From the IMG/VR virus record IMGVR_UViG_2617271086_000006: a stretch of DNA of 13,662 bases; one strand, 5' to 3'. Origin of the DNA: a virus (lineage: Duplodnaviria > Heunggongvirae > Uroviricota > Caudoviricetes). Shown here in pieces: positions 386-13,505 of the stretch. The notes below the pieces were generated by a model. The model was not told where the DNA came from. It did not search any database and saw only the letters and a list, made by a program, of their open reading frames with translations. Position 1 is the stretch's first letter; the number at the start of each line of letters is the position of its first letter. The translations under genes were made by a program, and so were the position numbers.

Positions 386-1609
386 ATGGCGCTGTCTGAT
401 GCGTGGTTGCGTTCAGTCGTTGGAAAGGAACGTGATAAGGTTTTGGTTAAATCCGATCGTGATGGTCTGTCTGTCAGAGTATCACCGAAAGGTCGCGTAG
501 TGTTCCAATATCGTTATCAATGGGCAGGGAAAGGTGAGCGTCTTGATATCGGAACTTACCCGGCAACTGGATTAAAAGAGGCCAGAGAAGAAGTTATCCG
601 TCTCCGTGGTGAACTCGAGTCAAACCGTAATCCACGATTGGTCAAGCAGGCTGAAAAACGAAAAGCTACTGAAGCCATGACGGTAGAGTCTGTGATCCGT
701 GCCTGGTATGAAGCATATTGTGTAAAAAATAAAAAAGGCTCTGAACAGATACTCCGCTCGTTTGAGCTGCACCTGTTCTCTAAAATCGGGAATATCCCTC
801 ACGATGCAGCTACATTGCATGATTGGTTAGAAGTCCTGGAGCCTCTTAGCACTAAGACTCCAGCAATAGCAGACCGATTGCTAATTAACGCAAAGCAGGC
901 CCATGTCTGGGCGTATAAGAGAAAGCTCATTGAAACTCGCCCGCTGTCGGATATCACGGGTAAAGATATGGATATCCGTAAAGGTCAGAAGAAACGGTTT
1001 CTGACACATGATGAAATTAAAATCCTTTATGCTGCGATCGATGGTTCTCGAATGGTTCCTAAATACCGGGCCTTCATTAAACTATTGCTGCATTTTGGCT
1101 GCCGTAGTTCAGAGCTAATTACCGCCAGGGTGGACGATTTTGATTTCATTAATAAAGTATGGACTGTACCACCAGAACGACATAAGACTGGGGAGATAAC
1201 GGGCGAACCGCTAAAACGGCCCATTATTGAACCGGTTGAAGAGCTTATAAAGTACGCTATTTCTATGAACAATGGTTCCGATATGCTTTTTACTAAGGAA
1301 GGAAGCAGGGAACCCGTTGGTCGGACATCATTGCAGTCGCTGCCTTACAATTTAATGCAGTATGCATGGCGGCGTTTGGGGTATCAATTCCCTCATTGGT
1401 CTCTGCATGATTTGAGGCGAACAGCACGAACAAACTTTTCTGATCTTACTGCGCCTCATATCGCAGAAATAATGCTCGGTCATAAACTGCCGGGGGTATG
1501 GCAAGTTTATGACAAGAGTGATTATTTAGAAGAACAGCGTAAAGCCTACCAGGCATGGTGGGAGAGAGTTGAATCGATTGTTACTTGTTCTGGTTCAGAC
1601 ACCAACTGA
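386..1609 (+). CDS. int: Tyrosine site-specific integrase (phage integrase family, P4-like)
   Basis: 407-aa ORF. Catalytic-domain signatures GCRSSEL (box I Arg), HDLRRTART (His-x-x-Arg) and a C-terminal Tyr region (VWQVYDKSDY). N-terminal region resembles the arm-binding domain. GGTGAG Shine-Dalgarno-like sequence 4-5 nt upstream of ATG 386. Confidence 0.9.
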   Translation: MALSDAWLRSVVGKERDKVLVKSDRDGLSVRVSPKGRVVFQYRYQWAGKGERLDIGTYPATGLKEAREEVIRLRGELESNRNPRLVKQAEKRKATEAMTVESVIRAWYEAYCVKNKKGSEQILRSFELHLFSKIGNIPHDAATLHDWLEVLEPLSTKTPAIADRLLINAKQAHVWAYKRKLIETRPLSDITGKDMDIRKGQKKRFLTHDEIKILYAAIDGSRMVPKYRAFIKLLLHFGCRSSELITARVDDFDFINKVWTVPPERHKTGEITGEPLKRPIIEPVEELIKYAISMNNGSDMLFTKEGSREPVGRTSLQSLPYNLMQYAWRRLGYQFPHWSLHDLRRTARTNFSDLTAPHIAEIMLGHKLPGVWQVYDKSDYLEEQRKAYQAWWERVESIVTCSGSDTN

Positions 1610-1781: not shown

Positions 1782-3035
1782 ATGAAAGTCGAAATGAATA
1801 CTAAACTTTTGGCCTATTTAAACAATGAGTTACATGGAGTGTGGATAGATAGTGAAAATCGTAATATCCACATAATACTTAAATCAAGCCTTCCTATAAT
1901 TAAATCCGTCTGGTCAGGAGCACCTATCCACTTTTTGGTAGGTTTATCTACTAAAAATATACTAGTGATTGGGATGTTGATTGAAGATAATGTCGATAAT
2001 CCATTTTTACTAGCCTATCCACCAAGAGAGGCAGATGAAATTAAAGGGCTGGATTTGTTATTGTCAGGCGCTTATGATGGTATTCTATTATCATTTTTTG
2101 ACTCGCATACAATGCGTGTTATGGACCTGAAAATAAAAGTTTCGGAAAATTTACCGTGTGAATGTTTAAAAAAATTTTGTGCTAATTCATATTCTCTCAA
2201 TTCAGGATTTAGGGAAGGTAATGAAGCAATGGATGAATTCTGCAACAATGCTTTGACTGGTAACGAGAAAATAATTAGTCTGCCACTAAGTGTAATCGAT
2301 AAAAAATCTTACCTAGCAAGTGTTCATGAACCAAACGATACCGTATTAACATATGAATTTAGCGTCAGTGAAAACGGCTCTGAGGGATATGAGCAGGAAG
2401 CTCTTATATACCATGCTTTGCGGCAGGTCTTTTCACCGGAGGAAGTGTTTTTTTCTCCAGATATTATTGAGGGTAATAAAAAAAGAGAACTAGTTGATAT
2501 TCTTATTGTAGAAAATGACTATGTATTATCTATACAGTCTAAAGCATCATCTTTGATTGAAATGGGTTTAAAATCTCATGAAAAGCTTTGTAGCATGTAT
2601 AAGAAAAAAGCATTGCAAGGGATCGATCAGGTTAAAGGCGTTATCCCAATTCTAAATAATGATGTGGTTATTAATTATGACGGGAGGGAATGCTTAATAA
2701 AGCGCAGAAAGGGTATTTATCATTTAGTGATAATCTCAGATCTTGTTTTAGAGAAAGAAGGTGCTGAAAAGATTTATAACGAAATTAGCAACCTTAAAGA
2801 GTCAAAAGGGGCGAAAGTTTTAGTTATGAGCCTTGAAGGTCTTGTAAATTTTATAAGACTATCAAGATTAAATAAAAGAATGTTTTGGGCAATGCTGGAG
2901 ACTAAATACAAGTTCAGCATAAAAAACCGTACAATTTTAATTAGAGATATCGACTCTAGCCAAGAGAATAATCTACCATTACTTGCCACTGATCAATACC
3001 TATCACTTCTTCGAGGTACGGGAAAATTAAAATAA
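1782..3035 (+). CDS. AT-rich cargo (moron) protein of unknown function with a putative PD-(D/E)xK nuclease-like core; candidate defence or abortive-infection protein
   Basis: 417-aa ORF, visibly AT-rich compared with the roughly 50% GC flanks. Residues about 201-254 show helix EGYEQEALIYHALRQ, then strand ELVDILIV (Asp), then strand YVLSIQSK (Q-x-K), i.e. a D-x12-QxK arrangement as in Mrr/NERD-type PD-(D/E)xK folds. Start may be ATG 1782 or the in-frame ATG 1794. No confident family assignment. Confidence 0.7.
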   Translation: MKVEMNTKLLAYLNNELHGVWIDSENRNIHIILKSSLPIIKSVWSGAPIHFLVGLSTKNILVIGMLIEDNVDNPFLLAYPPREADEIKGLDLLLSGAYDGILLSFFDSHTMRVMDLKIKVSENLPCECLKKFCANSYSLNSGFREGNEAMDEFCNNALTGNEKIISLPLSVIDKKSYLASVHEPNDTVLTYEFSVSENGSEGYEQEALIYHALRQVFSPEEVFFSPDIIEGNKKRELVDILIVENDYVLSIQSKASSLIEMGLKSHEKLCSMYKKKALQGIDQVKGVIPILNNDVVINYDGRECLIKRRKGIYHLVIISDLVLEKEGAEKIYNEISNLKESKGAKVLVMSLEGLVNFIRLSRLNKRMFWAMLETKYKFSIKNRTILIRDIDSSQENNLPLLATDQYLSLLRGTGKLK

Positions 3036-4734: not shown

Positions 4735-5261
4735 TTGCGTAACTCCGATAACTCGTTAAAACGTTCCATAAACATCCCGTAGGCATGTCCTGGTGCCAGT
4801 GGAATCACTTTGAACATCTCTGTTGCCGGGATACCTTCCAGTACAGGCCAGAAAGAGCCATCATCAAGCCCGAGATCGCGGCGTTCGGTTGCCAGCATAA
4901 TGAGATCGGCATATTTCACTGGCGTGCTCATAACAGGAGGTAACCCGTATTTCTCACGGATTACGGCGTCTATTTTTTCTTCCATCTGTTTATAGTCAGG
5001 AAGAAGGCGTTTCAGTGGCGCGGGGATGTCCTGACAATACGCTTCTGTTGCATCATGCATTAACGCTTCAAAAGCAAACTCCTCCGGAACCAGTTTGCTG
5101 CAAAGCACCGCATGTTGGGCGACGCTGTAGAAGTGTGAAAGATGACCGGCAAAGCGACAGATATTTGAAAGGGAAACTGCGATATCGTTAATCACGATGT
5201 CGTCTTTATTTATCCTGTCATAATAAAAATGCTTCCCGGAAAAAGTTTTAATAAATGACAT
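4725..5261 (-). CDS. yfdR: HD-domain phosphohydrolase, YfdR-like
   Basis: Trimmed to the internal Met (MSFIKTFSGKHFYYD...), giving 178 aa, which matches the length I recall for E. coli CPS-53 YfdR. HD signature (H...ALMHDATEAY). GTGGAG Shine-Dalgarno-like sequence 7 nt upstream of ATG 5261. Confidence 0.85.
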   Translation of the reverse strand: MSFIKTFSGKHFYYDRINKDDIVINDIAVSLSNICRFAGHLSHFYSVAQHAVLCSKLVPEEFAFEALMHDATEAYCQDIPAPLKRLLPDYKQMEEKIDAVIREKYGLPPVMSTPVKYADLIMLATERRDLGLDDGSFWPVLEGIPATEMFKVIPLAPGHAYGMFMERFNELSELRKCA

Positions 5262-6825: not shown

Positions 6826-7320
6826 CAAAGCAGTGGCTGTTGTGGTGACCGGTGCTGATCTCCGGCTTGCGGTTATTTCAGACTCTCACGGGCGTTTAAT
6901 TGCCCCGCCGAACAGCTCTTTTCCGCAATAGCTGCAATGTCTTTCGCGCATCAGCCTGCGCATTCACCACAACGCTGAGAGCATTGCCGGTGTCCGAATC
7001 GAACGGACCTTTTCCCTGCCCAACCCTCCCATCTGAATGGGACTGTCTGGAATTGAACCAGCACTTATGCCTTGCTCGTCAATGCTCTCATCGTTGCGTC
7101 CTGGTCTCTTCCCAAGCGTCAAACCGAATCGCCACGCTGGTTAGGCGTCTTATCAGCATCCTCATTGACTTGCACATTCCGGCTACCTGGTTTGTTTGCC
7201 CGAGCAAGGAGTGGATTATCCCCTTTAACGTCCCCAGACCGCTAACGACGCATGTGCCATACGCCGTGTTACAACCAAATTTTGTTTGAATCTTGCCTGC
7301 CTCATGTTTCTTTTGGATAC

Positions 7321-7387: not shown

Positions 7388-8062
7388 TTAGGCCTTTATT
7401 GTGTATCTTCTTGGTTTTCCCGAGAAAATCACTGTACCAATTATAGAGCAATTACCGTTAATCTTAATGTAAGGCTCAGGCCAGTTTGGGTTTAATGCTT
7501 TGAGATAACGCTGTGTTCCATCTTCTATCAACCGCTTGAAGGTGGTTTCGCCTGAATCGTGCATCAATGCAATAACGTCGTCACCGTGGCAGGCAGGGAC
7601 TTCAGGATCAACAAAAATCATGTCTCCCGGGCGGTACTCATCAATCATTGAATCACCAATCACCCGCAAGATATAAGTCATTTCGCCACAGGGTACAGGG
7701 CAGGGATAAGTTTCTGCTGTGCTCAAATCAACCTCAGAATAGCCAACTTCTTTCCATGCTCCGGCCTGTACCCATGATATGACAGGGACTAACGTTATTT
7801 GTTTGTTAGTGATTGAAACATCAGGTTTTTTTGTGATGTTCGTGGTCTGGTGTTCTTGATCAAGCCATCCGACAGGCAGGTCGAAACATTTTTCGATGTG
7901 CCTTGCCATGCTGTCACCGATATTTTTAGTAGCACCATCTCCCATAAACCTGCTGGTCTGGGTTGGCTCGCGATCAATCATGGTGGCAAAGGAAGAATTC
8001 CCGCCAACACCATCTCTCAGTTTTCTGGCGTTAGACCGCCGGATGTCATGGACTGTTTTCAT
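7388..8062 (-). CDS. cI: CI-type prophage repressor (N-terminal HTH, C-terminal S24 LexA-like autopeptidase)
   Basis: 224-aa ORF. Ala-Gly autocleavage site (VQAGAW), Ser nucleophile motif GDSM and Lys in TFKRL. Divergent from the cro-like gene. No Shine-Dalgarno sequence close to the ATG, so the mRNA may be leaderless as for lambda PRM. Confidence 0.9.
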   Translation of the reverse strand: MKTVHDIRRSNARKLRDGVGGNSSFATMIDREPTQTSRFMGDGATKNIGDSMARHIEKCFDLPVGWLDQEHQTTNITKKPDVSITNKQITLVPVISWVQAGAWKEVGYSEVDLSTAETYPCPVPCGEMTYILRVIGDSMIDEYRPGDMIFVDPEVPACHGDDVIALMHDSGETTFKRLIEDGTQRYLKALNPNWPEPYIKINGNCSIIGTVIFSGKPRRYTIKA

Positions 8063-8948: not shown

Positions 8949-9544
8949 ACAGTTTAACGGCAAATAACCGTTTGTCGCAACAGCTGGTGGTCAGCGTCGC
9001 TGAACACCTGTTGTTACGGCATGAATGCAGATTACCAAATCTCCTGGCTGTAAGTAACCACAGAGAACTTTACCTGACTGTGGGGGGCGAGTTGTGCAGG
9101 AACTTAACCGCTGGTTTCGTGACGGAAGAGGACTTTATGTTCATGTTATTCGTTGGGAGCCAGAAACACAGCGCGTTATCTATCTTCGCAAAGACTACCC
9201 GCATGAGTGCTTTAGTCCTTTGTGGAAATTCAAGCGTGATTTTGTTGAGTGTGAAGGACCACCAGCACATTGATTCTGCCATTCCGGGACGTTACACTGT
9301 TCAGGCACCTTATAAAGCGGGTGCCGGGATTGGCGTCCTGGAATTGATCAAGGCGATATATGACGCGCCAGCGTCTTTTTTATCGTCCGCATTTGCTCAC
9401 ATCAAAGTTATGGTGGGCTGGGCGGGGGCATCGAAAGATGCGCCGGTTTCCTTGATCACCGGTTACGCCAACCCCGTTCAGTTCACCACCAGCGAAATTG
9501 GCGTTTCCGGTGGTGGAAGTGGAACAAACCAGCCCATGAACTGA
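8945..9544 (+). CDS. Hypothetical protein (199 aa)
   Basis: Long ORF coupled to the upstream gene by an ATGA overlap (8945-8948). No recognised motif. A shorter protein-like reading (about 58 aa from GTG 9094) exists in another frame. Confidence 0.5.
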   Translation: MNSLTANNRLSQQLVVSVAEHLLLRHECRLPNLLAVSNHRELYLTVGGELCRNLTAGFVTEEDFMFMLFVGSQKHSALSIFAKTTRMSALVLCGNSSVILLSVKDHQHIDSAIPGRYTVQAPYKAGAGIGVLELIKAIYDAPASFLSSAFAHIKVMVGWAGASKDAPVSLITGYANPVQFTTSEIGVSGGGSGTNQPMN

Positions 9545-9549
9545 AGGAA

Positions 9550-9816
9550 GTGGGCGATTTCACCGATCAAGGAGGCTGCCATCATGCTACTGTCCCAGCC
9601 CTCACTCGTCTGAATGATGAAGACTTACATAAACTCAGTTATGTAACAACTGCACTACGTGCTCTGCGCAAGGTAACTCTTTCGGATCCGCAGGCACATC
9701 AGGTTCTGGTAGAAACCCTTCTTAACTTGCAAGCTGAACGTATTCGTCTGGCGGATAAGGCTAATTTTCATATTCACCGTCTCCTGAATATCAGCGGAGG
9801 GCATCGTCATGCTTAA
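9550..9816 (+). CDS. Hypothetical protein (88 aa, GTG start)
   Basis: ORF with no in-frame ATG and a poorly spaced Shine-Dalgarno-like sequence. Helical-looking C-terminal half. Low confidence. Confidence 0.3.
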   Translation: MGDFTDQGGCHHATVPALTRLNDEDLHKLSYVTTALRALRKVTLSDPQAHQVLVETLLNLQAERIRLADKANFHIHRLLNISGGHRHA

Positions 9817-10045
9817 TCCGTTGCTCCTCAACATTTACCGTTTATTTCAGCGTAAAAAAATATCAACACCCACAGTTGGGCAGTGGTACACCACGCCAGC
9901 AGGGCATGTTCTACGTGTCAGCCTGGTTGACCGTGAATGTCAGAAGGTGATTTGTGAACCGCTGGGCCGTAATTACCGCGTCAGTATGCCGCTTATAGCC
10001 TTTCGCTCCGGAAAAAACATGAAGCATCTCGGAGGTGCAGCATGA
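9809..10045 (+). CDS. Hypothetical small protein (78 aa)
   Basis: ATG 9809 preceded by GGAGGG at 7 nt. ATGA overlap with the downstream initiator gene (10042-10045). Confidence 0.6.
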   Translation: MLNPLLLNIYRLFQRKKISTPTVGQWYTTPAGHVLRVSLVDRECQKVICEPLGRNYRVSMPLIAFRSGKNMKHLGGAA

Positions 10046-10860
10046 GTATGGAGCTGATGGTTAAAGCGATGAAAATTCGAGTGGGTAATCCATTGCGAAA
10101 ACTGGTTCTGATCAAGCTGGCTGATAATGCCAGCGATCAGGGTGAGTGCTGGCCCAGCTACCAGCATATTGCTGACCAGTGCGAGATTAGCAAACGTTCT
10201 GTGATGAATCATATTGCGGCCCTTTGTGAGTCCGGGCTGGTAAAAAAAGTCACCCGGAAAGGTGAAAAAGGTAACTCAAGTAATATCTATCTCCTTCATC
10301 TGGATGGTGCAGGAGATTCACTAGGGGGTAGTGCAAATAATTCACTATCTGGTGCAGCAAATTCACCAGGTAGTGCAGGAGTTGCACTAGGGGGTAGTGC
10401 AGGAGATTCACCCAGAACCAGTCACTCTTTTGAACCAGTCAAAGAACCAGTCAATGAACCAATAGCTGTTGGTGCATCTGCTGATGAGTCTGTGCGAGTT
10501 CGTTCAAACCGACCGGAATACTCTCCGGAGTTTGAGCAGGCATGGCTGGCATATCCCAAACGTGCTGGTGGCAATTCAAAATCTGCAGCCTTCAAAGCCT
10601 GGAAAGCCCGTTTGAATGAGGGGGTAAACCCCGAAACCATGCTGGAAGGTGTGAAACGCTATGCGGGCTGGGTATCTGCGATGGGTAACAGCGGCACACA
10701 ATTTGTGAAACAGGCTGTCACGTTCTTTGGTCCGGATCGTCATTTCGAAGAATCCTGGGAAGTTCCTGCGGTATCTGCAGCCAGACGTGAGGACCCGTAC
10801 TTCAAAGCCAGTTACGACAACGTGGACTACAGCCAGATCCCGGCAGGATTCAGGGGGTGA
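10042..10860 (+). CDS. Replication initiator, O-like (N-terminal winged-helix DNA-binding domain, iteron-encoded linker, C-terminal domain)
   Basis: 272-aa ORF with GGAGG 6 nt upstream. N-terminal HTH_36-like winged helix (LRKLVLIKLADNASDQGECWPSYQHIADQCEISKRSVMNHIAALCESGLVKK). The central Gly/Ser/Ala-rich linker is encoded by tandem DNA repeats, as for ori-lambda inside gene O. Confidence 0.8.
   Translation: MSMELMVKAMKIRVGNPLRKLVLIKLADNASDQGECWPSYQHIADQCEISKRSVMNHIAALCESGLVKKVTRKGEKGNSSNIYLLHLDGAGDSLGGSANNSLSGAANSPGSAGVALGGSAGDSPRTSHSFEPVKEPVNEPIAVGASADESVRVRSNRPEYSPEFEQAWLAYPKRAGGNSKSAAFKAWKARLNEGVNPETMLEGVKRYAGWVSAMGNSGTQFVKQAVTFFGPDRHFEESWEVPAVSAARREDPYFKASYDNVDYSQIPAGFRG
10303..10413. 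repeat. Iteron array (putative origin of replication) inside the O-like gene
   Basis: Four direct repeats of about 19 bp with consensus TTCAC-N8/9-GTGCA: 10317-10335, 10341-10359, 10362-10380 and 10383-10401, at a period of 21-24 bp. Confidence 0.6.
10415..10461. repeat. Tandem GAACCAGTCA decamer repeats next to the iterons
   Basis: GAACCAGTCA at 10415-10424, 10432-10441 and 10444-10453, plus a partial GAACCAA at 10456-10461. They encode EPVKEPVNEP in the initiator linker. Confidence 0.5.
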
Positions 10861-10862
10861 TC

Positions 10863-11357
10863 ATGAGTCTTTTGAATGAAGTTCAGAAATTCATTGAAGC
10901 CCATCCGGGGTGTACTTCCGGAGACATTGCGGATGCTTTTGCAGGTTACTCACGGCAGCGCGTTCTGCAGTCAGCAAGCAAGTTACGTCAGAGTGGGCGT
11001 GTGGCTCACCGTTGTGAAGGGGATACACGCAGACATTTTCCGCGCCAGATAAAGATATCGCCGGAGGCGGAACGGCAACCAGTTCGTGAAACCAGACCTG
11101 TGCGCAATTTCTATGTCGGCACTAACGACCCGCGGGAGATTTTATGCCTGACCCGCCAGGCTGAAGAACTGGAGTCCAGGGGCTTATACCGTCGTGCTGC
11201 AACGGTGTGGATGGCGGCATTCCGTGAAAGCCACTCCCAGCCAGAACGAAACAATTTTCTGGCGCGTCGTGAGCAGTGTTTACGAAAAGCAGCAAGCGCG
11301 CTGTATCGGGTGATGAGTGGTATCTGTCAGGGAATTACGTGGGGGCTTAATGAGTAA
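10863..11357 (+). CDS. Winged-helix / PerC-like regulatory protein (tentative)
   Basis: Trimmed from the GTG start at 10857 to ATG 10863 (MSLLNEVQKF...), 164 aa. The C-terminal segment AEELESRGLYRRAATVWMAAF resembles the PerC/Pch-family motif. Assignment is tentative. Confidence 0.55.
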   Translation: MSLLNEVQKFIEAHPGCTSGDIADAFAGYSRQRVLQSASKLRQSGRVAHRCEGDTRRHFPRQIKISPEAERQPVRETRPVRNFYVGTNDPREILCLTRQAEELESRGLYRRAATVWMAAFRESHSQPERNNFLARREQCLRKAASALYRVMSGICQGITWGLNE

Positions 11358-11967
11358 TAAATATTGCCAGGAGCTGGTGGAACTGCATCAGTGGCGCACG
11401 CCGGACAACATTTTCTGGGGAATTAACACCCTGTTTGGTCCGTTTGTTCTGGATCTGTTCACTGACGGTGATAACGCCAAATGCGCTGCGTATTACACGG
11501 CGGAAGACAACGCGCTGGCGCATGACTGGTCAGAACGCCTTGCGGAGCTTAAAGGTGCTGCCTTTGGAAATCCCCCATACAGCCGCGCCAGTCAGCATGA
11601 GGGGCAATACATCACCGGCATGCGTTACATCATGAAGCATGCCAGTGCCATGCGTGATAAGGGCGGGCGCTATGTTTTCCTGATCAAAGCTGCCACCAGC
11701 GAAGTGTGGTGGCCGGAAGATGCAGATCATATTGCTTTTATTCGCGGGCGTATTGGTTTTGAACTGCCTGCCTGGTTTATCCCGAAGGATGAGAAGCAGG
11801 TGCCGACAGGCGCTTTCTTCGCTGGTGCTATTGCTGTTTTCGACAAGACCTGGAAGGGACCGGCAATCAGCTATATCGGGCGCGATGAACTTGAGGCATG
11901 TGGTGAGGCGTTTCTGGCGCAGGTTCGCCTGCAGGCGGAAAAGCTGGTCAGGGAGATGGCGGCATGA
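11350..11967 (+). CDS. Phage Dam-like DNA N6-adenine methyltransferase
   Basis: Trimmed to ATG 11350 (MSNKYCQELVELHQW...), 205 aa. Catalytic motif GNPPYS. Overlaps the upstream gene by 8 nt and the downstream gene by ATGA. Confidence 0.85.
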   Translation: MSNKYCQELVELHQWRTPDNIFWGINTLFGPFVLDLFTDGDNAKCAAYYTAEDNALAHDWSERLAELKGAAFGNPPYSRASQHEGQYITGMRYIMKHASAMRDKGGRYVFLIKAATSEVWWPEDADHIAFIRGRIGFELPAWFIPKDEKQVPTGAFFAGAIAVFDKTWKGPAISYIGRDELEACGEAFLAQVRLQAEKLVREMAA

Positions 11968-12290
11968 CGACGTTAACTCAATGCCAGCAGCAGGTGCTGG
12001 ATATGCTGATTTCTTATCAGAAAGAGCGTGGCTTCCCGCCAACCAATCAGGAGGTGGCAACCATGCTGGGATACCGTTCGGTGAATGCAGCGGTGGAGCA
12101 TCTTCGCGCACTGGAGAAAAAAGGCGTCATCACGATAAAGCGTGGTGTGGCCCGGGGGATCACGCTTCATACCGCGGTGAAGGACGACGACAGCGAGGCG
12201 GTCGGGATTATCCGCTCACTGCTTGCCGGTGAGGAAAACGCAAGGCTGCGTGCAACTCACTGGTTACATGAGAGAGGCCTGAAAGTATGA
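11964..12290 (+). CDS. LexA N-terminal DNA-binding-domain-like protein lacking the S24 peptidase domain
   Basis: 108-aa ORF. Aligns by eye with E. coli LexA residues 1-70 (QQQVLDMLISYQKERGFPPTNQEVATMLGYRSVNAAVEHLRALEKKGVITI against [51 protein letters not shown]). ATGA overlaps at both ends. Confidence 0.8.
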   Translation: MTTLTQCQQQVLDMLISYQKERGFPPTNQEVATMLGYRSVNAAVEHLRALEKKGVITIKRGVARGITLHTAVKDDDSEAVGIIRSLLAGEENARLRATHWLHERGLKV

Positions 12291-12676
12291 AGCTGATCCT
12301 GCCTTTCCCGCCCAGCGTGAACACCTACTGGCGACACCCCAACAAAGGGGCATTTGCTGGTAAGAGCCTGATAAGCGCGGCGGGGCGAAAATTTCAGAGC
12401 GCGGCGTGCGCAGCAATAGTTGAGCAGTTACGTCGTCTGCCAAAACCAACGTCGGCACCTGCTTCAGTGGAGATCGTGTTGTTTCCTCCGGATAACCGGA
12501 TCCGCGATCTGGACAACTATAACAAGGCGCTGTTTGACGCCCTGACCCACGCGGGTGTGTGGGAAGACGACAGACAGGTGAAAAGAATGCTGGTGGAGTG
12601 GGGACCGGTTATCCCGAAAGGGAAGGTCGAGATCACTATCAGTAAGTATGAGAAACCGGCGGGTGCAGCCGCCTGA
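12287..12676 (+). CDS. rusA: RusA-family Holliday junction resolvase
   Basis: 129-aa ORF. Conserved RDLDN...FDALT...DD catalytic Asp cluster (NRIRDLDNYNKALFDALTHAGVWEDD) closely matches E. coli RusA. Confidence 0.9.
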   Translation: MKLILPFPPSVNTYWRHPNKGAFAGKSLISAAGRKFQSAACAAIVEQLRRLPKPTSAPASVEIVLFPPDNRIRDLDNYNKALFDALTHAGVWEDDRQVKRMLVEWGPVIPKGKVEITISKYEKPAGAAA

Positions 12677-12695: not shown

Positions 12696-13505
12696 ATGAA
12701 TAATCTGATGGTTATTGATGGTATTGAAGTTCGTCGTGATGCTTATGGGCGTTACAGCCTGAACGATCTGCACAGGGCAGCCGGGGGAGAACAAAAAAAC
12801 CGCCCGAAATACTGGCTCTCCAATAAGCAAACCTGTGAATTGATTGAACAACTTTTCACCGAGGGTGGAATTCCGCCTCTGGAACAAAATCAACCAGTTA
12901 GCGTCATTAATGGCGGAAATAACCAGGGGACGTATGTCTGCAAAGAACTGGTGTATGCCTATGCAATGTGGATCAGCCCGTCATTCCATCTGAAGGTGAT
13001 CCGTACTTTCGATATGGTAACCAGCGCACCGGAAAAATTATCCGGGCAGGCTGCTGACAAGATGCAGGCTGGAGTGATTCTGCTGGACTTTATGCGCAGG
13101 GAGTTAAACCTGTCTAACTCTTCAGTGCTTGGTGCCTGTCAGAAACTCCAGGAGGCTGTTGGCTTACCGAATCTGGCACCGCGCTATGCCATTGATGCTC
13201 CTGCTGACGCGCCTGATGGCTCAAGTCGCCCTACGCTGTCGCTGAGTGCACTGCTGAAACAGTATGGTATCCGCCTTACGGCTAATCAGGCATATCACCA
13301 GATGGCGAAGCTGGGGATCGTTGAACAACGCGAACGATACAGCCGTACCTCGATTAACAACATCAAAAAATTCTGGTCGCTGACAGCGAAAGGCTGCATG
13401 TTCGGCAAGAACATCACCAGTCCCGCAAATCCGCGCGAGACGCAGCCGCATTTCTTCGAATCCCGATTCCCTGAGCTGTTAAAGCTGCTCGATACCGTTC
13501 ATTGA
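12696..13505 (+). CDS. KilA-N domain protein (antirepressor/Roi-like)
   Basis: 269-aa ORF with GAGGAG 9 nt upstream. N-terminal KilA-N-like segment (VIDGIEVRRDAYGRYSLNDLHRAAGG...PKYWLSNKQTCELIEQL). C-terminal domain unassigned. Confidence 0.8.
   Translation: MNNLMVIDGIEVRRDAYGRYSLNDLHRAAGGEQKNRPKYWLSNKQTCELIEQLFTEGGIPPLEQNQPVSVINGGNNQGTYVCKELVYAYAMWISPSFHLKVIRTFDMVTSAPEKLSGQAADKMQAGVILLDFMRRELNLSNSSVLGACQKLQEAVGLPNLAPRYAIDAPADAPDGSSRPTLSLSALLKQYGIRLTANQAYHQMAKLGIVEQRERYSRTSINNIKKFWSLTAKGCMFGKNITSPANPRETQPHFFESRFPELLKLLDTVH

What the first reader, a model, noticed from the sequence alone, without database searches (positions are those of the whole stretch)
11964..12290. Phage-encoded LexA DNA-binding-domain-only protein
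The 108-aa protein matches the LexA N-terminal winged helix, including recognition-helix residues (SVNAAVEH against LexA SPNAAEEH), but has no dimerisation/autopeptidase domain and therefore cannot be inactivated by RecA. It could occupy SOS boxes or interfere with LexA, tuning the host SOS response or prophage induction. It is translationally coupled to the Dam-like methyltransferase and RusA.
Basis: partly seen in the sequence, partly recalled or inferred. Interest (0 to 1): 0.6.

Follow-up and report, generated by a model that had tools for sequence, protein, structure and literature searches.

The report
Prophage LexA-like DNA-binding protein, protease-less
This is a real and very common prophage gene for a small protein that copies the DNA-binding head of the bacterial SOS repressor LexA but lacks the self-cleaving part; databases already annotate it, nobody appears to have tested its function, and it may act as a damage-insensitive stand-in for LexA.

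Summary
ORF 11964..12290 (+) encodes 108 aa whose residues 1-69 match the LexA DNA-binding domain over its full length (Pfam PF01726, E=2.9e-19). They are about 50% identical to E. coli LexA, and the model lies 1.0 A from DNA-bound LexA. There is no S24 peptidase domain. ATGA overlaps join the gene to a Dam-type methyltransferase upstream and RusA downstream.

It is not strictly "domain-only". Residues 75-103 form a conserved two-helix hairpin, found in relatives down to 38% identity, which I infer replaces LexA's dimerisation domain.

The gene is not new. RefSeq calls it "LexA family transcriptional regulator" and it is PHROG 362. It occurs in SfV, SfII, SfIV, mEp460, cdtI and Stx2c/Stx2a phages, and in 2233 of 5426 complete E. 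coli genomes. I found no functional study.

Four of LexA's five base-contacting residues are kept (S39, N41, A42, E45); Glu44 is always replaced. The best reading is a RecA-insensitive, SOS-box-binding LexA mimic made early in lytic growth (confidence about 0.45). The window contains no SOS box, and no phage-borne box depends on the gene. GIL01 gp6, the one characterised truncated phage LexA homologue, binds a different site and activates transcription, so a phage-specific target remains a serious rival.

The parts
11964..12290 (+). Gene for the 108-aa LexA-like protein (identical or near-identical to SfV orf42; RefSeq WP_000210170.1 in IAI39; PHROG 362)
   Evidence: ORF and translation. PHROG 362 over the full length, E=1.1e-59. 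100% identical protein in phages SKA5, Ayreon, Kati and Stx2c phages. RefSeq annotation.
11964..12170 (+). Residues 1-69: LexA-type winged helix-turn-helix (helices 6-22, 28-35, 40-52; wing strands 56-58 and 66-68)
   Evidence: Pfam PF01726 positions 1-65 of 65, E=2.9e-19. AF2 secondary structure. Foldseek hit to 3jso at rmsd 1.0 A.
12081..12119 (+). Residues 40-52: recognition helix (VNAAVEHLRALEK). With S39 it carries the counterparts of the LexA contact residues S39, N41, A42, E44 and E45, here S, N, A, V, E
   Evidence: Alignment to LexA. Contact-residue list from PMC3091678. Column conservation.
12171..12185 (+). Residues 70-74: acidic flexible linker (pLDDT below 50 for residues 71-75)
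   Evidence: AF2 confidence profile. Length varies between homologues.
12186..12272 (+). Residues 75-103: conserved two-helix hairpin (helices 75-88 and 93-103), the inferred dimerisation module
   Evidence: pLDDT about 90. A97 and L101 are invariant. Positions 82, 83, 86, 87, 100 and 101 are large hydrophobic residues in all 13 non-redundant homologues down to 38% identity. No solved relative by sequence.
11950..11967 (+). Shine-Dalgarno AGGGAG (11950-11955) and the ATGA overlap of the Dam stop with the start of this gene
   Evidence: Read directly from the sequence.
12287..12290 (+). ATGA overlap of this gene's stop with the rusA start
   Evidence: Read directly from the sequence.
11317..11967 (+). 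Upstream neighbour: phage N-6-adenine methyltransferase (Dam family)
   Evidence: PF05869 E=4e-43. TIGR01712 at 238.5 bits, above its cutoff.
12287..12676 (+). Downstream neighbour: RusA Holliday-junction resolvase
   Evidence: PF05866 E=1.3e-14. PHROG 34.
12696..13505 (+). Next gene: KilA-N domain protein. In the SfIV-type variant this gene has its own SOS box upstream
   Evidence: PF04383 E=4.5e-27. SfIV box at L005 4765-4784, score 24.

Best explanation
Shown. This is a genuine delayed-early gene in the replication-to-Q (nin-like) segment of a lambdoid prophage. It lies in one overlapping-frame block with Dam and RusA, downstream of the cro/cII/replication genes. It encodes a LexA-type winged helix, a flexible linker and a conserved helical hairpin. 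It has no S24 peptidase domain and no conserved Ala-Gly site.

Inferred, step 1. Lacking the catalytic domain, the protein is insensitive to RecA-stimulated self-cleavage.

Inferred, step 2. The C-terminal hairpin pairs two subunits. This supplies the dimerisation that the LexA DNA-binding domain needs for tight operator binding.

Inferred, step 3. Because S39, N41, A42 and E45 of the recognition helix and R64-G65 of the wing are retained, each subunit reads a CTGT-type half-site. The dimer would then occupy SOS boxes (CTGT-N8-ACAG) or close variants.

Inferred, step 4. The gene would be made from pR once the prophage is induced or a cell is infected, which is when host LexA is being destroyed. 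The protein would then re-impose repression on LexA-controlled promoters. These include host SOS genes and, in some relatives, phage genes with SOS boxes such as dinI, the late methyltransferase and the KilA-N variant. The SOS response would be damped in a way that DNA damage cannot reverse.
For: Domain identity and fold.

Retention of 4 of 5 LexA base-contact residues, with S39 invariant and N41 at 90% or more across homologues from nine enterobacterial genera, all hosts with the same SOS box.

A conserved hydrophobic hairpin, with more invariant large hydrophobic positions than a two-helix hairpin would seem to need for its own packing.

Proof of principle that the LexA DNA-binding domain plus any homodimeriser represses sulA, while the domain alone does not: PMC7160566, describing the Dmitrova et al. 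1998 system.

Gene position and orientation with the pR-side early genes in the window, SfV, mEp460, cdtI, mEp390 and a Klebsiella phage.

Near-consensus SOS boxes do exist in many phages that carry the gene.
Against: There is no DNA-binding or expression data for this family; the literature searches found nothing.

The window has no SOS box. Its best PSSM score is 9.4, whereas known boxes score 12.8-27.5. About 35 of 80 related loci also have none within 10 kb.

The late-methyltransferase box is kept perfectly in phage phiNP, which lacks this gene. No phage box is therefore tied to it.

Glu44, one of the five LexA contact residues, is replaced in every family member by V, A, F, T, L or Y. Some divergent members also lose E45 or N41. 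Specificity may have shifted.

GIL01 gp6, 44% identical to its host's LexA domain, binds a different palindrome and activates.

Dimerisation is inferred only; the dimer prediction could not be run.
Confidence: 0.45

Rival explanations
1. It is a phage-specific transcription factor with its own operator, not the SOS box, analogous to GIL01 gp6. The captured LexA head has been retuned to a phage or host promoter, where it activates or represses, for example to time late or accessory genes.
For: The only characterised truncated phage LexA homologue works this way (PMC6182141). Glu44 is systematically replaced, and E45 or N41 are lost in some family members. A new dimerisation module could impose a new half-site spacing. 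The window has no SOS box.
Against: Four of five LexA contact residues and the wing R64-G65 are conserved, unlike gp6, whose key residue is Lys38. No CTGT-Nk-ACAG spacing other than the canonical N8 is enriched in the window, SfV, mEp460 or cdtI. The gene sits inside an overlapping operon with no adjacent intergenic operator. Late-gene control in these phages is already provided by a Q antiterminator.
Confidence: 0.22
2. It is a DNA-binding accessory of the phage recombination and repair module (RusA, DUF968/HNH-like protein, Dam) rather than a transcription factor. It would target or modulate those enzymes on DNA.
For: It is adjacent to rusA, with overlapping stop and start codons, in the E. 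coli group and in mEp390 at 47% identity. A DUF968 gene lies close downstream in every context examined. One metagenomic protein, P0158, fuses a LexA_DNA_bind domain to DUF968.
Against: The fusion is a singleton cluster on one contig. Gene order in nin regions is mosaic and is weak evidence of partnership. rusA is a pseudogene in SfIV and absent in the Klebsiella phage, while the LexA-like gene stays intact. A LexA-type recognition helix under strong conservation implies sequence-specific binding.
Confidence: 0.1
3. It is a decaying remnant of a captured lexA-like gene with no current function.
For: The sequence similarity to LexA runs about 20 residues past the DNA-binding domain, including an aligned AGE motif. 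This is consistent with origin by truncation of a full-length LexA-like gene.
Against: The full-length architecture, including the C-terminal hairpin, is conserved at 38-52% identity across nine genera. The frame is intact in 2222 E. coli genomes. The gene has a good Shine-Dalgarno and overlapping reading frames with its neighbours.
Confidence: 0.03

Closest known systems
E. coli LexA (SOS repressor), N-terminal domain (PDB 1lea, 3jso)
   Same: Same winged helix-turn-helix fold (rmsd 1.0 A, 50-51% identity). Same S39, N41, A42, E45 and H46 in the recognition helix, and same R64-G65 in the wing.
   Different: No S24 autopeptidase/dimerisation domain and no conserved Ala-Gly cleavage site. Glu44 is replaced by Val. 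Carries a 30-residue helical hairpin instead. Phage-encoded in the early lytic operon, not autoregulated from an SOS-box promoter.
GIL01 (Bacillus thuringiensis tectivirus) gp6, a truncated LexA homologue that activates late promoter P3 (PMC6182141)
   Same: A phage-encoded protein derived from the LexA DNA-binding domain, lacking the catalytic domain, expressed early in lytic development.
   Different: gp6 is essentially the winged helix alone. It binds a non-SOS palindrome (GaCACAnnTGTGaC) through Lys38 and activates transcription. The present family belongs to Gram-negative lambdoid phages, keeps LexA's contact residues and adds a C-terminal hairpin; its target and its sign of regulation are unknown.
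Engineered LexA-DBD fusions used as bacterial dimerisation reporters (Dmitrova et al. 1998 system, as used in PMC7160566)
   Same: A LexA DNA-binding domain joined by a linker to a heterologous dimerisation element. Such fusions repress sulA-lacZ and cannot be cleaved via RecA.
   Different: Those are artificial constructs with the wild-type LexA 1-87. Here the arrangement is natural, the domain is 50% diverged, and dimerisation by the hairpin is only inferred.
Lambdoid CI-type repressors with an S24 domain (for example the window's own repressor, 7388..8062, ymfK-like)
   Same: Phage transcription factors related to the LexA superfamily. Both are labelled "LexA family" in RefSeq.
   Different: CI-type proteins share the cleavable S24 C-terminal domain but have a different N-terminal DNA-binding domain. 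This protein shares the N-terminal domain and lacks the C-terminal one.

Membership tests
LexA repressor proper (NCBIfam TIGR00498 equivalog) | N-terminal LexA winged-helix DNA-binding domain | tested here: met
   PF01726 positions 1-65 of 65, E=2.9e-19. 1lea E=7e-16. 3jso rmsd 1.0 A.
LexA repressor proper (NCBIfam TIGR00498 equivalog) | C-terminal S24 serine-lysine autopeptidase/dimerisation domain | tested here: not met
   The protein ends at residue 108 and has no PF00717 hit. The TIGR00498 match covers model positions 1-91 of 203 and scores 70.8, below the cutoff of 110.95.
LexA repressor proper (NCBIfam TIGR00498 equivalog) | Conserved Ala-Gly cleavage site | tested here: not met
   A88-G89 aligns to LexA A84-G85, but homologues have AK, AN, VG, TR, SG, DD or AE there.
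LexA repressor proper (NCBIfam TIGR00498 equivalog) | Binds CTGT-N8-ACAG operators, including one at its own promoter | not testable with these tools
   No SOS box anywhere in the window (best PSSM score 9.4). Binding itself needs experiment.
Pfam PF01726 LexA_DNA_bind domain family / PHROG 362 | Significant full-length match to the family profile | tested here: met
   PF01726 at 69 bits against a cutoff of 23.7. PHROG 362 positions 1-106 of 106, E=1.1e-59.
Short enterobacterial-phage LexA-like proteins (this family: wHTH plus C-terminal hairpin) | About 100-135 aa; LexA wHTH followed by the motif [IVL][ILF][RQK]x[LM][LIVM]...A...A..[WFYL]L | tested here: met
   Alignments A1 and A2 include members from Cronobacter, Kosakonia, Enterobacter, Cedecea, Klebsiella, Salmonella and Citrobacter.
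GIL01 gp6-type late-gene activator | Truncated LexA homologue encoded by a temperate phage | tested here: met
GIL01 gp6-type late-gene activator | Retuned recognition helix (Lys38) binding a non-SOS palindrome that overlaps the -35 of the late promoter | tested here: not met
   The recognition helix keeps LexA's S39, N41, A42 and E45. No candidate palindrome was found at alternative spacings. Late control here is by a Q antiterminator.
GIL01 gp6-type late-gene activator | Activates transcription | not testable with these tools
   Needs reporter or in vitro transcription assays.

The most novel reading that the evidence does not exclude
A non-cleavable LexA mimic, carried by prophages in about 41% of E. 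coli genomes and by all sequenced O157 Stx2c phages, rebinds SOS boxes after host LexA has been destroyed. It would so shut down the SOS regulon in induced or infected cells. This would limit SOS mutagenesis, colicin release, induction of rival prophages that depend on LexA-controlled antirepressors, and possibly Shiga-toxin output.
Probability: 0.3. Interest if true: 0.7.

Novelty: new member of a known kind. Interest (0 to 1): 0.4.

Why it matters
If the protein does bind SOS boxes, a large share of E. coli, Shigella and other enterobacterial lysogens carry a phage gene that can override the host's DNA-damage switch in a way RecA cannot reverse. That bears on how induced prophages compete with co-resident prophages. 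It also bears on antibiotic-triggered SOS mutagenesis in lysogens, and on why some Shiga-toxin phages are poor toxin producers: the O157 Stx2c phages, all of which carry the gene, are low producers (PMC4645166), though this is correlation only. If it instead has its own operator, it would be the second case, after GIL01 gp6, of a phage re-purposing the LexA head, and the first in Gram-negative lambdoid phages. Either way the question can be answered by a few simple experiments on a protein that is easy to express.

Tried and rejected
1. Residual cleavage site. A88-G89 aligns with LexA A84-G85, which suggested trans-cleavage by LexA or CI. I rejected this because the pair is not conserved in homologues.

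2. SOS box in the window. I scanned the pattern CTGT-N8-ACAG with up to one mismatch and found 6 matches against 4.5 expected. The single perfect match, at 9048-9063, lies inside an ORF. A PSSM scan gave a best score of 9.4 against at least 12.8 for known boxes. There is no site.

3. Non-canonical half-site spacings (k=0-24) in the window, SfV, mEp460 and cdtI. Only the canonical N8 stands out, and only in mEp460 and cdtI.

4. Functional association with phage SOS boxes. Of 28 phage records with the SOS-box-bearing late methyltransferase, 27 also carry this gene. The exception, phiNP, keeps the box perfectly, so the link is genomic linkage, not dependence.

5. Internal promoter for lysogenic expression. 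The -35/-10 proposed for SfV dam is weak and is altered in the window. The promoter scan finds nothing upstream of the gene on the + strand between 10800 and 11964.

6. Homology of the C-terminal hairpin to solved structures. There were no meaningful hits.

7. Homodimer prediction with a linker-fused tandem.

8. Defence-system membership (PADLOC). Only a marginal hit to the helix-turn-helix part of a CARF protein, E=3.6e-4.

9. Literature on this family. Seven searches returned nothing specific. The Zhang et al. 2010 LexA-DNA structure paper is not held, so the contact residues are quoted second-hand from PMC3091678.

Full report
**1. The observation**

The window is the left and early part of a lambdoid prophage. 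In order it carries:
- an integrase (386..1609);
- YfdQ/YfdR-type genes on the minus strand;
- an S24-type repressor (7388..8062, minus strand);
- a plus-strand early operon of cII-like, Ash, replication, PerC-like, Dam-type methyltransferase, the gene in question, RusA and a KilA-N protein.

Several tests identify its N-terminal part as a LexA DNA-binding domain:
- It matches Pfam LexA_DNA_bind end to end (residues 1-65, profile 1-65 of 65, E=2.9e-19).
- It hits the E. coli LexA N-terminal domain best among solved structures (1lea, E=7e-16). RSVNAAVEHL aligns on LexA [10 protein letters not shown].
- An AlphaFold2 model built on 24 homologues (pLDDT 84) superposes on DNA-bound LexA (3jso) at 1.0 A over 67-68 residues, with 50-51% identity.

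There is no S24 peptidase match. The NCBIfam lexA equivalog aligns only to its first 91 of 203 positions and scores below its cutoff. ATGA overlaps join the gene to Dam upstream and RusA downstream, and an AGGGAG ribosome-binding site sits 8 nt before the ATG.

**2.

The model shows a flexible acidic linker (residues 70-74, pLDDT below 50) followed by two confident helices, 75-88 and 93-103. An exhaustive profile-free search of 1.84 billion representatives found full-length relatives at 38-52% identity. They come from Cronobacter, Kosakonia, Enterobacter, Cedecea, Klebsiella and Salmonella. All have the same layout.

In a non-redundant set of 13 sequences:
- positions 82, 83, 86, 87, 100 and 101 are always large hydrophobic residues;
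- A97 and L101 are invariant.

A 30-residue hairpin with this many fixed hydrophobic positions is most simply an oligomerisation or docking element.

The inference matters. In the standard LexA-based dimerisation reporter, the LexA DNA-binding domain alone fails to repress sulA-lacZ. The same domain fused to any homodimerising protein does repress it (PMC7160566, citing Dmitrova et al. 1998).

**3. Is it cleavable?**

HMMER extends the LexA alignment to residue 90 and places A88-G89-E90 on LexA's A84-G85-E86. I checked whether this could be a retained cleavage site. It is not conserved: homologues carry AK, AN, VG, TR, SG, DD or AE there. The catalytic domain is also absent, so RecA-stimulated self-cleavage can be excluded on sequence grounds. 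The extended similarity may be a vestige of origin by truncation of a full-length LexA-like gene.

**4. How common and how well known**

- The identical or near-identical protein is encoded by SfV (orf42), SfII, SfIV, mEp460, cdtI, Ayreon, SKA5, two Stx2a phages and all 15 Stx2c-converting phage records. Homologues at 40-47% identity occur in mEp390 and Klebsiella phages.
- The gene is present in 2233 of 5426 complete E. coli genomes, with up to four copies.
- RefSeq names it "LexA family transcriptional regulator" (WP_000210170.1). PHROGs calls the family (phrog_362) "transcriptional repressor".
- Some records mislabel it "SOS-response repressor and protease LexA" or "RecA-mediated autopeptidases", which the sequence contradicts.

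Seven literature searches found no functional study of this family.

**5. Context**

In every phage examined the gene lies between the replication genes and the Q antiterminator, in the same orientation as cro. The order is typically replication, (PerC-like), (Dam), LexA-like, (RusA), (KilA-N), DUF968/HNH-like, Q.

No convincing promoter lies directly upstream. Expression as a delayed-early gene from pR, silent in the lysogen, is therefore the likeliest pattern. This is inferred.

**6. Does it read SOS boxes?**

The LexA residues reported to contact bases are S39, N41, A42, E44 and E45 (PMC3091678). This protein has S, N, A, V, E at those positions.

Across the family:
- S39 is invariant and N41 is at least 90% conserved.
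- E45 is kept in most members.
- The wing residues R64-G65 are invariant.
- Position 44 is never acidic; it is V, A, F, T, L or Y.

All known hosts are Enterobacteriaceae with the same SOS box. This pattern favours retention of a CTGT-type half-site. It leaves room for altered affinity or a changed base preference.

I also scanned DNA. I built a PSSM from 22 E. coli SOS boxes recalled from the literature (my own list). On that PSSM the known boxes score 12.8-27.5.
- The window's best site scores 9.4, so the window has no SOS box.
- Related phages have near-consensus boxes at four places: their dinI promoters, the 5' end of a late DNA methyltransferase gene, inside the mEp460-type cI gene, and upstream of the KilA-N gene in SfIV-type variants.
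- About 35 of 80 related loci have none within 10 kb.
- The methyltransferase box co-occurs with this gene in 27 of 28 phage records, yet is perfectly kept in phiNP, which lacks the gene.

The phage boxes are therefore ordinary host-LexA sites that are linked to this gene but do not depend on it. No alternative half-site spacing is enriched. If the protein binds SOS boxes, its main targets would be the host regulon plus whichever phage boxes happen to be present.

**7. The precedent that cuts both ways**

GIL01 gp6 is a truncated LexA homologue of a Bacillus tectivirus. It is 44% identical to its host's LexA domain. It binds a different palindrome through Lys38 and activates the late promoter (PMC6182141).

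This shows that phages do capture the LexA head. It also shows that overall similarity does not guarantee SOS-box specificity. Unlike gp6, the present family retains LexA's contact residues and has an added hairpin, and its phages already control late genes with Q.

**8. Verdict**

The best-supported mechanism is a dimeric, RecA-insensitive LexA mimic made early in lytic growth. It would re-occupy SOS-type operators once host LexA has been cleaved. My confidence is about 0.45: the architecture is shown, while dimerisation, specificity and physiological effect are inferred.

Rivals:
- a retuned phage-specific regulator like gp6 (about 0.22);
- a DNA-binding partner of the RusA/DUF968 recombination module (about 0.10). 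This rests on conserved adjacency and on one singleton LexA_DNA_bind-DUF968 fusion;
- a functionless remnant (about 0.03), which the conservation contradicts.

The remaining probability is for something not considered.

**9. Novelty and interest**

The feature is real but already annotated and widespread. As a kind, a phage-encoded truncated LexA homologue, it has a characterised precedent. I therefore file it as a new, uncharacterised member of a known kind, with a distinct architecture.

Interest is moderate (0.4). The hypothesis is cheap to test and the gene is very common, including in Shiga-toxin phages. O157 Stx2c phages are reported to be uniformly low toxin producers (PMC4645166), and all the records carry the gene, but this is correlation only. 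Nothing found here goes beyond homology-based inference.

Noticed in passing
L002 (SfV) 34170-34189; L006 (mEp460) 41021-41040; L007 (cdtI) 44083-44102; L088 (phiNP) within about 7050-7070: A near-consensus SOS box, TACTGTAAAAATAAACAGTG (score 22.7), lies inside the first 10 codons of the late-region DNA methyltransferase gene, between Q and the lysis genes. It is perfectly conserved even at 85% overall identity in phiNP. A LexA site inside a late-operon coding sequence is unexpected. It could be a roadblock or an SOS-controlled internal promoter.
   Followed up: partly
L006 (mEp460) 31970-31989; 24 of 80 IMG/VR loci (for example L009, L017, L054): A very strong SOS box, TACTGTTTTTACATACAGTA or TACTGTTTTTATATACAGTA (scores 26-27), lies inside the coding region of the mEp460-type cI-like repressor gene, about 165-185 nt from its start. 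Its role is unexplained.
   Followed up: no
L005 (SfIV) 4765-4784; also L026, L048, L061, L065, L069: In SfIV-type variants rusA is a pseudogene. A 160-bp spacer with a strong SOS box (TACTGTATTTATGAACAGTA, score 24) precedes a KilA-N gene that has a different N-terminus. That would make it a LexA-controlled, possibly antirepressor-like, gene directly downstream of the LexA-like gene. In the window the KilA-N gene follows rusA after 20 bp with no box.
   Followed up: partly
Protein P0158 (240 aa, one metagenomic contig of 401,712 bp): A LexA_DNA_bind domain (residues 33-94, 55% identical to the query) is fused to a DUF968/HNH-like domain (residues 112-237). DUF968 genes lie close downstream of the LexA-like gene in all phages examined. 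The cluster is a singleton, so it may be a gene-calling artefact.
   Followed up: partly
Proteins P0132, P0149, P0155, P0211: These proteins carry two tandem LexA_DNA_bind domains in one chain, one of them fused to a PTPS domain. This is a different route around the dimerisation requirement of the LexA head.
   Followed up: no
Window 11317..11967 and RefSeq phage records (SfV dam, mEp460 gp45, cdtI gp47): The Dam-type N6-adenine methyltransferase is labelled "phosphoadenosine phosphosulfate reductase" in re-annotated NC_ phage records. It matches only the C-terminal part (positions 295-492 of 495) of phrog_33262, a fused family that carries the PAPS-reductase label. This looks like annotation carry-over.
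   Followed up: partly
Window 1782..3035 (+): A 417-aa ORF lies immediately after the integrase and has no Pfam or PADLOC match (RefSeq: hypothetical protein WP_016240718.1). Its position is typical of prophage cargo or defence genes.
   Followed up: partly
L004 (Klebsiella phage ST846-OXA48phi9.1) 1-969 and 3994-4013: A dinI homologue lies two genes upstream of the 40%-identical LexA-like gene. A consensus-like SOS box (TACTGTTTTTTTGTACAGTA) sits at the start of a divergent two-gene operon between Q and the holin gene.
   Followed up: no
L001 (E. coli IAI39 prophage) 9782-10995, 19155-19673, 19692-20912: The closest genome copy differs from the window by an IS3 insertion in ymfL. Its late region carries a ClbS/DfsB-family (colibactin self-protection type) gene, followed by an ISL3 element inserted just upstream of the late methyltransferase.
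   Followed up: no
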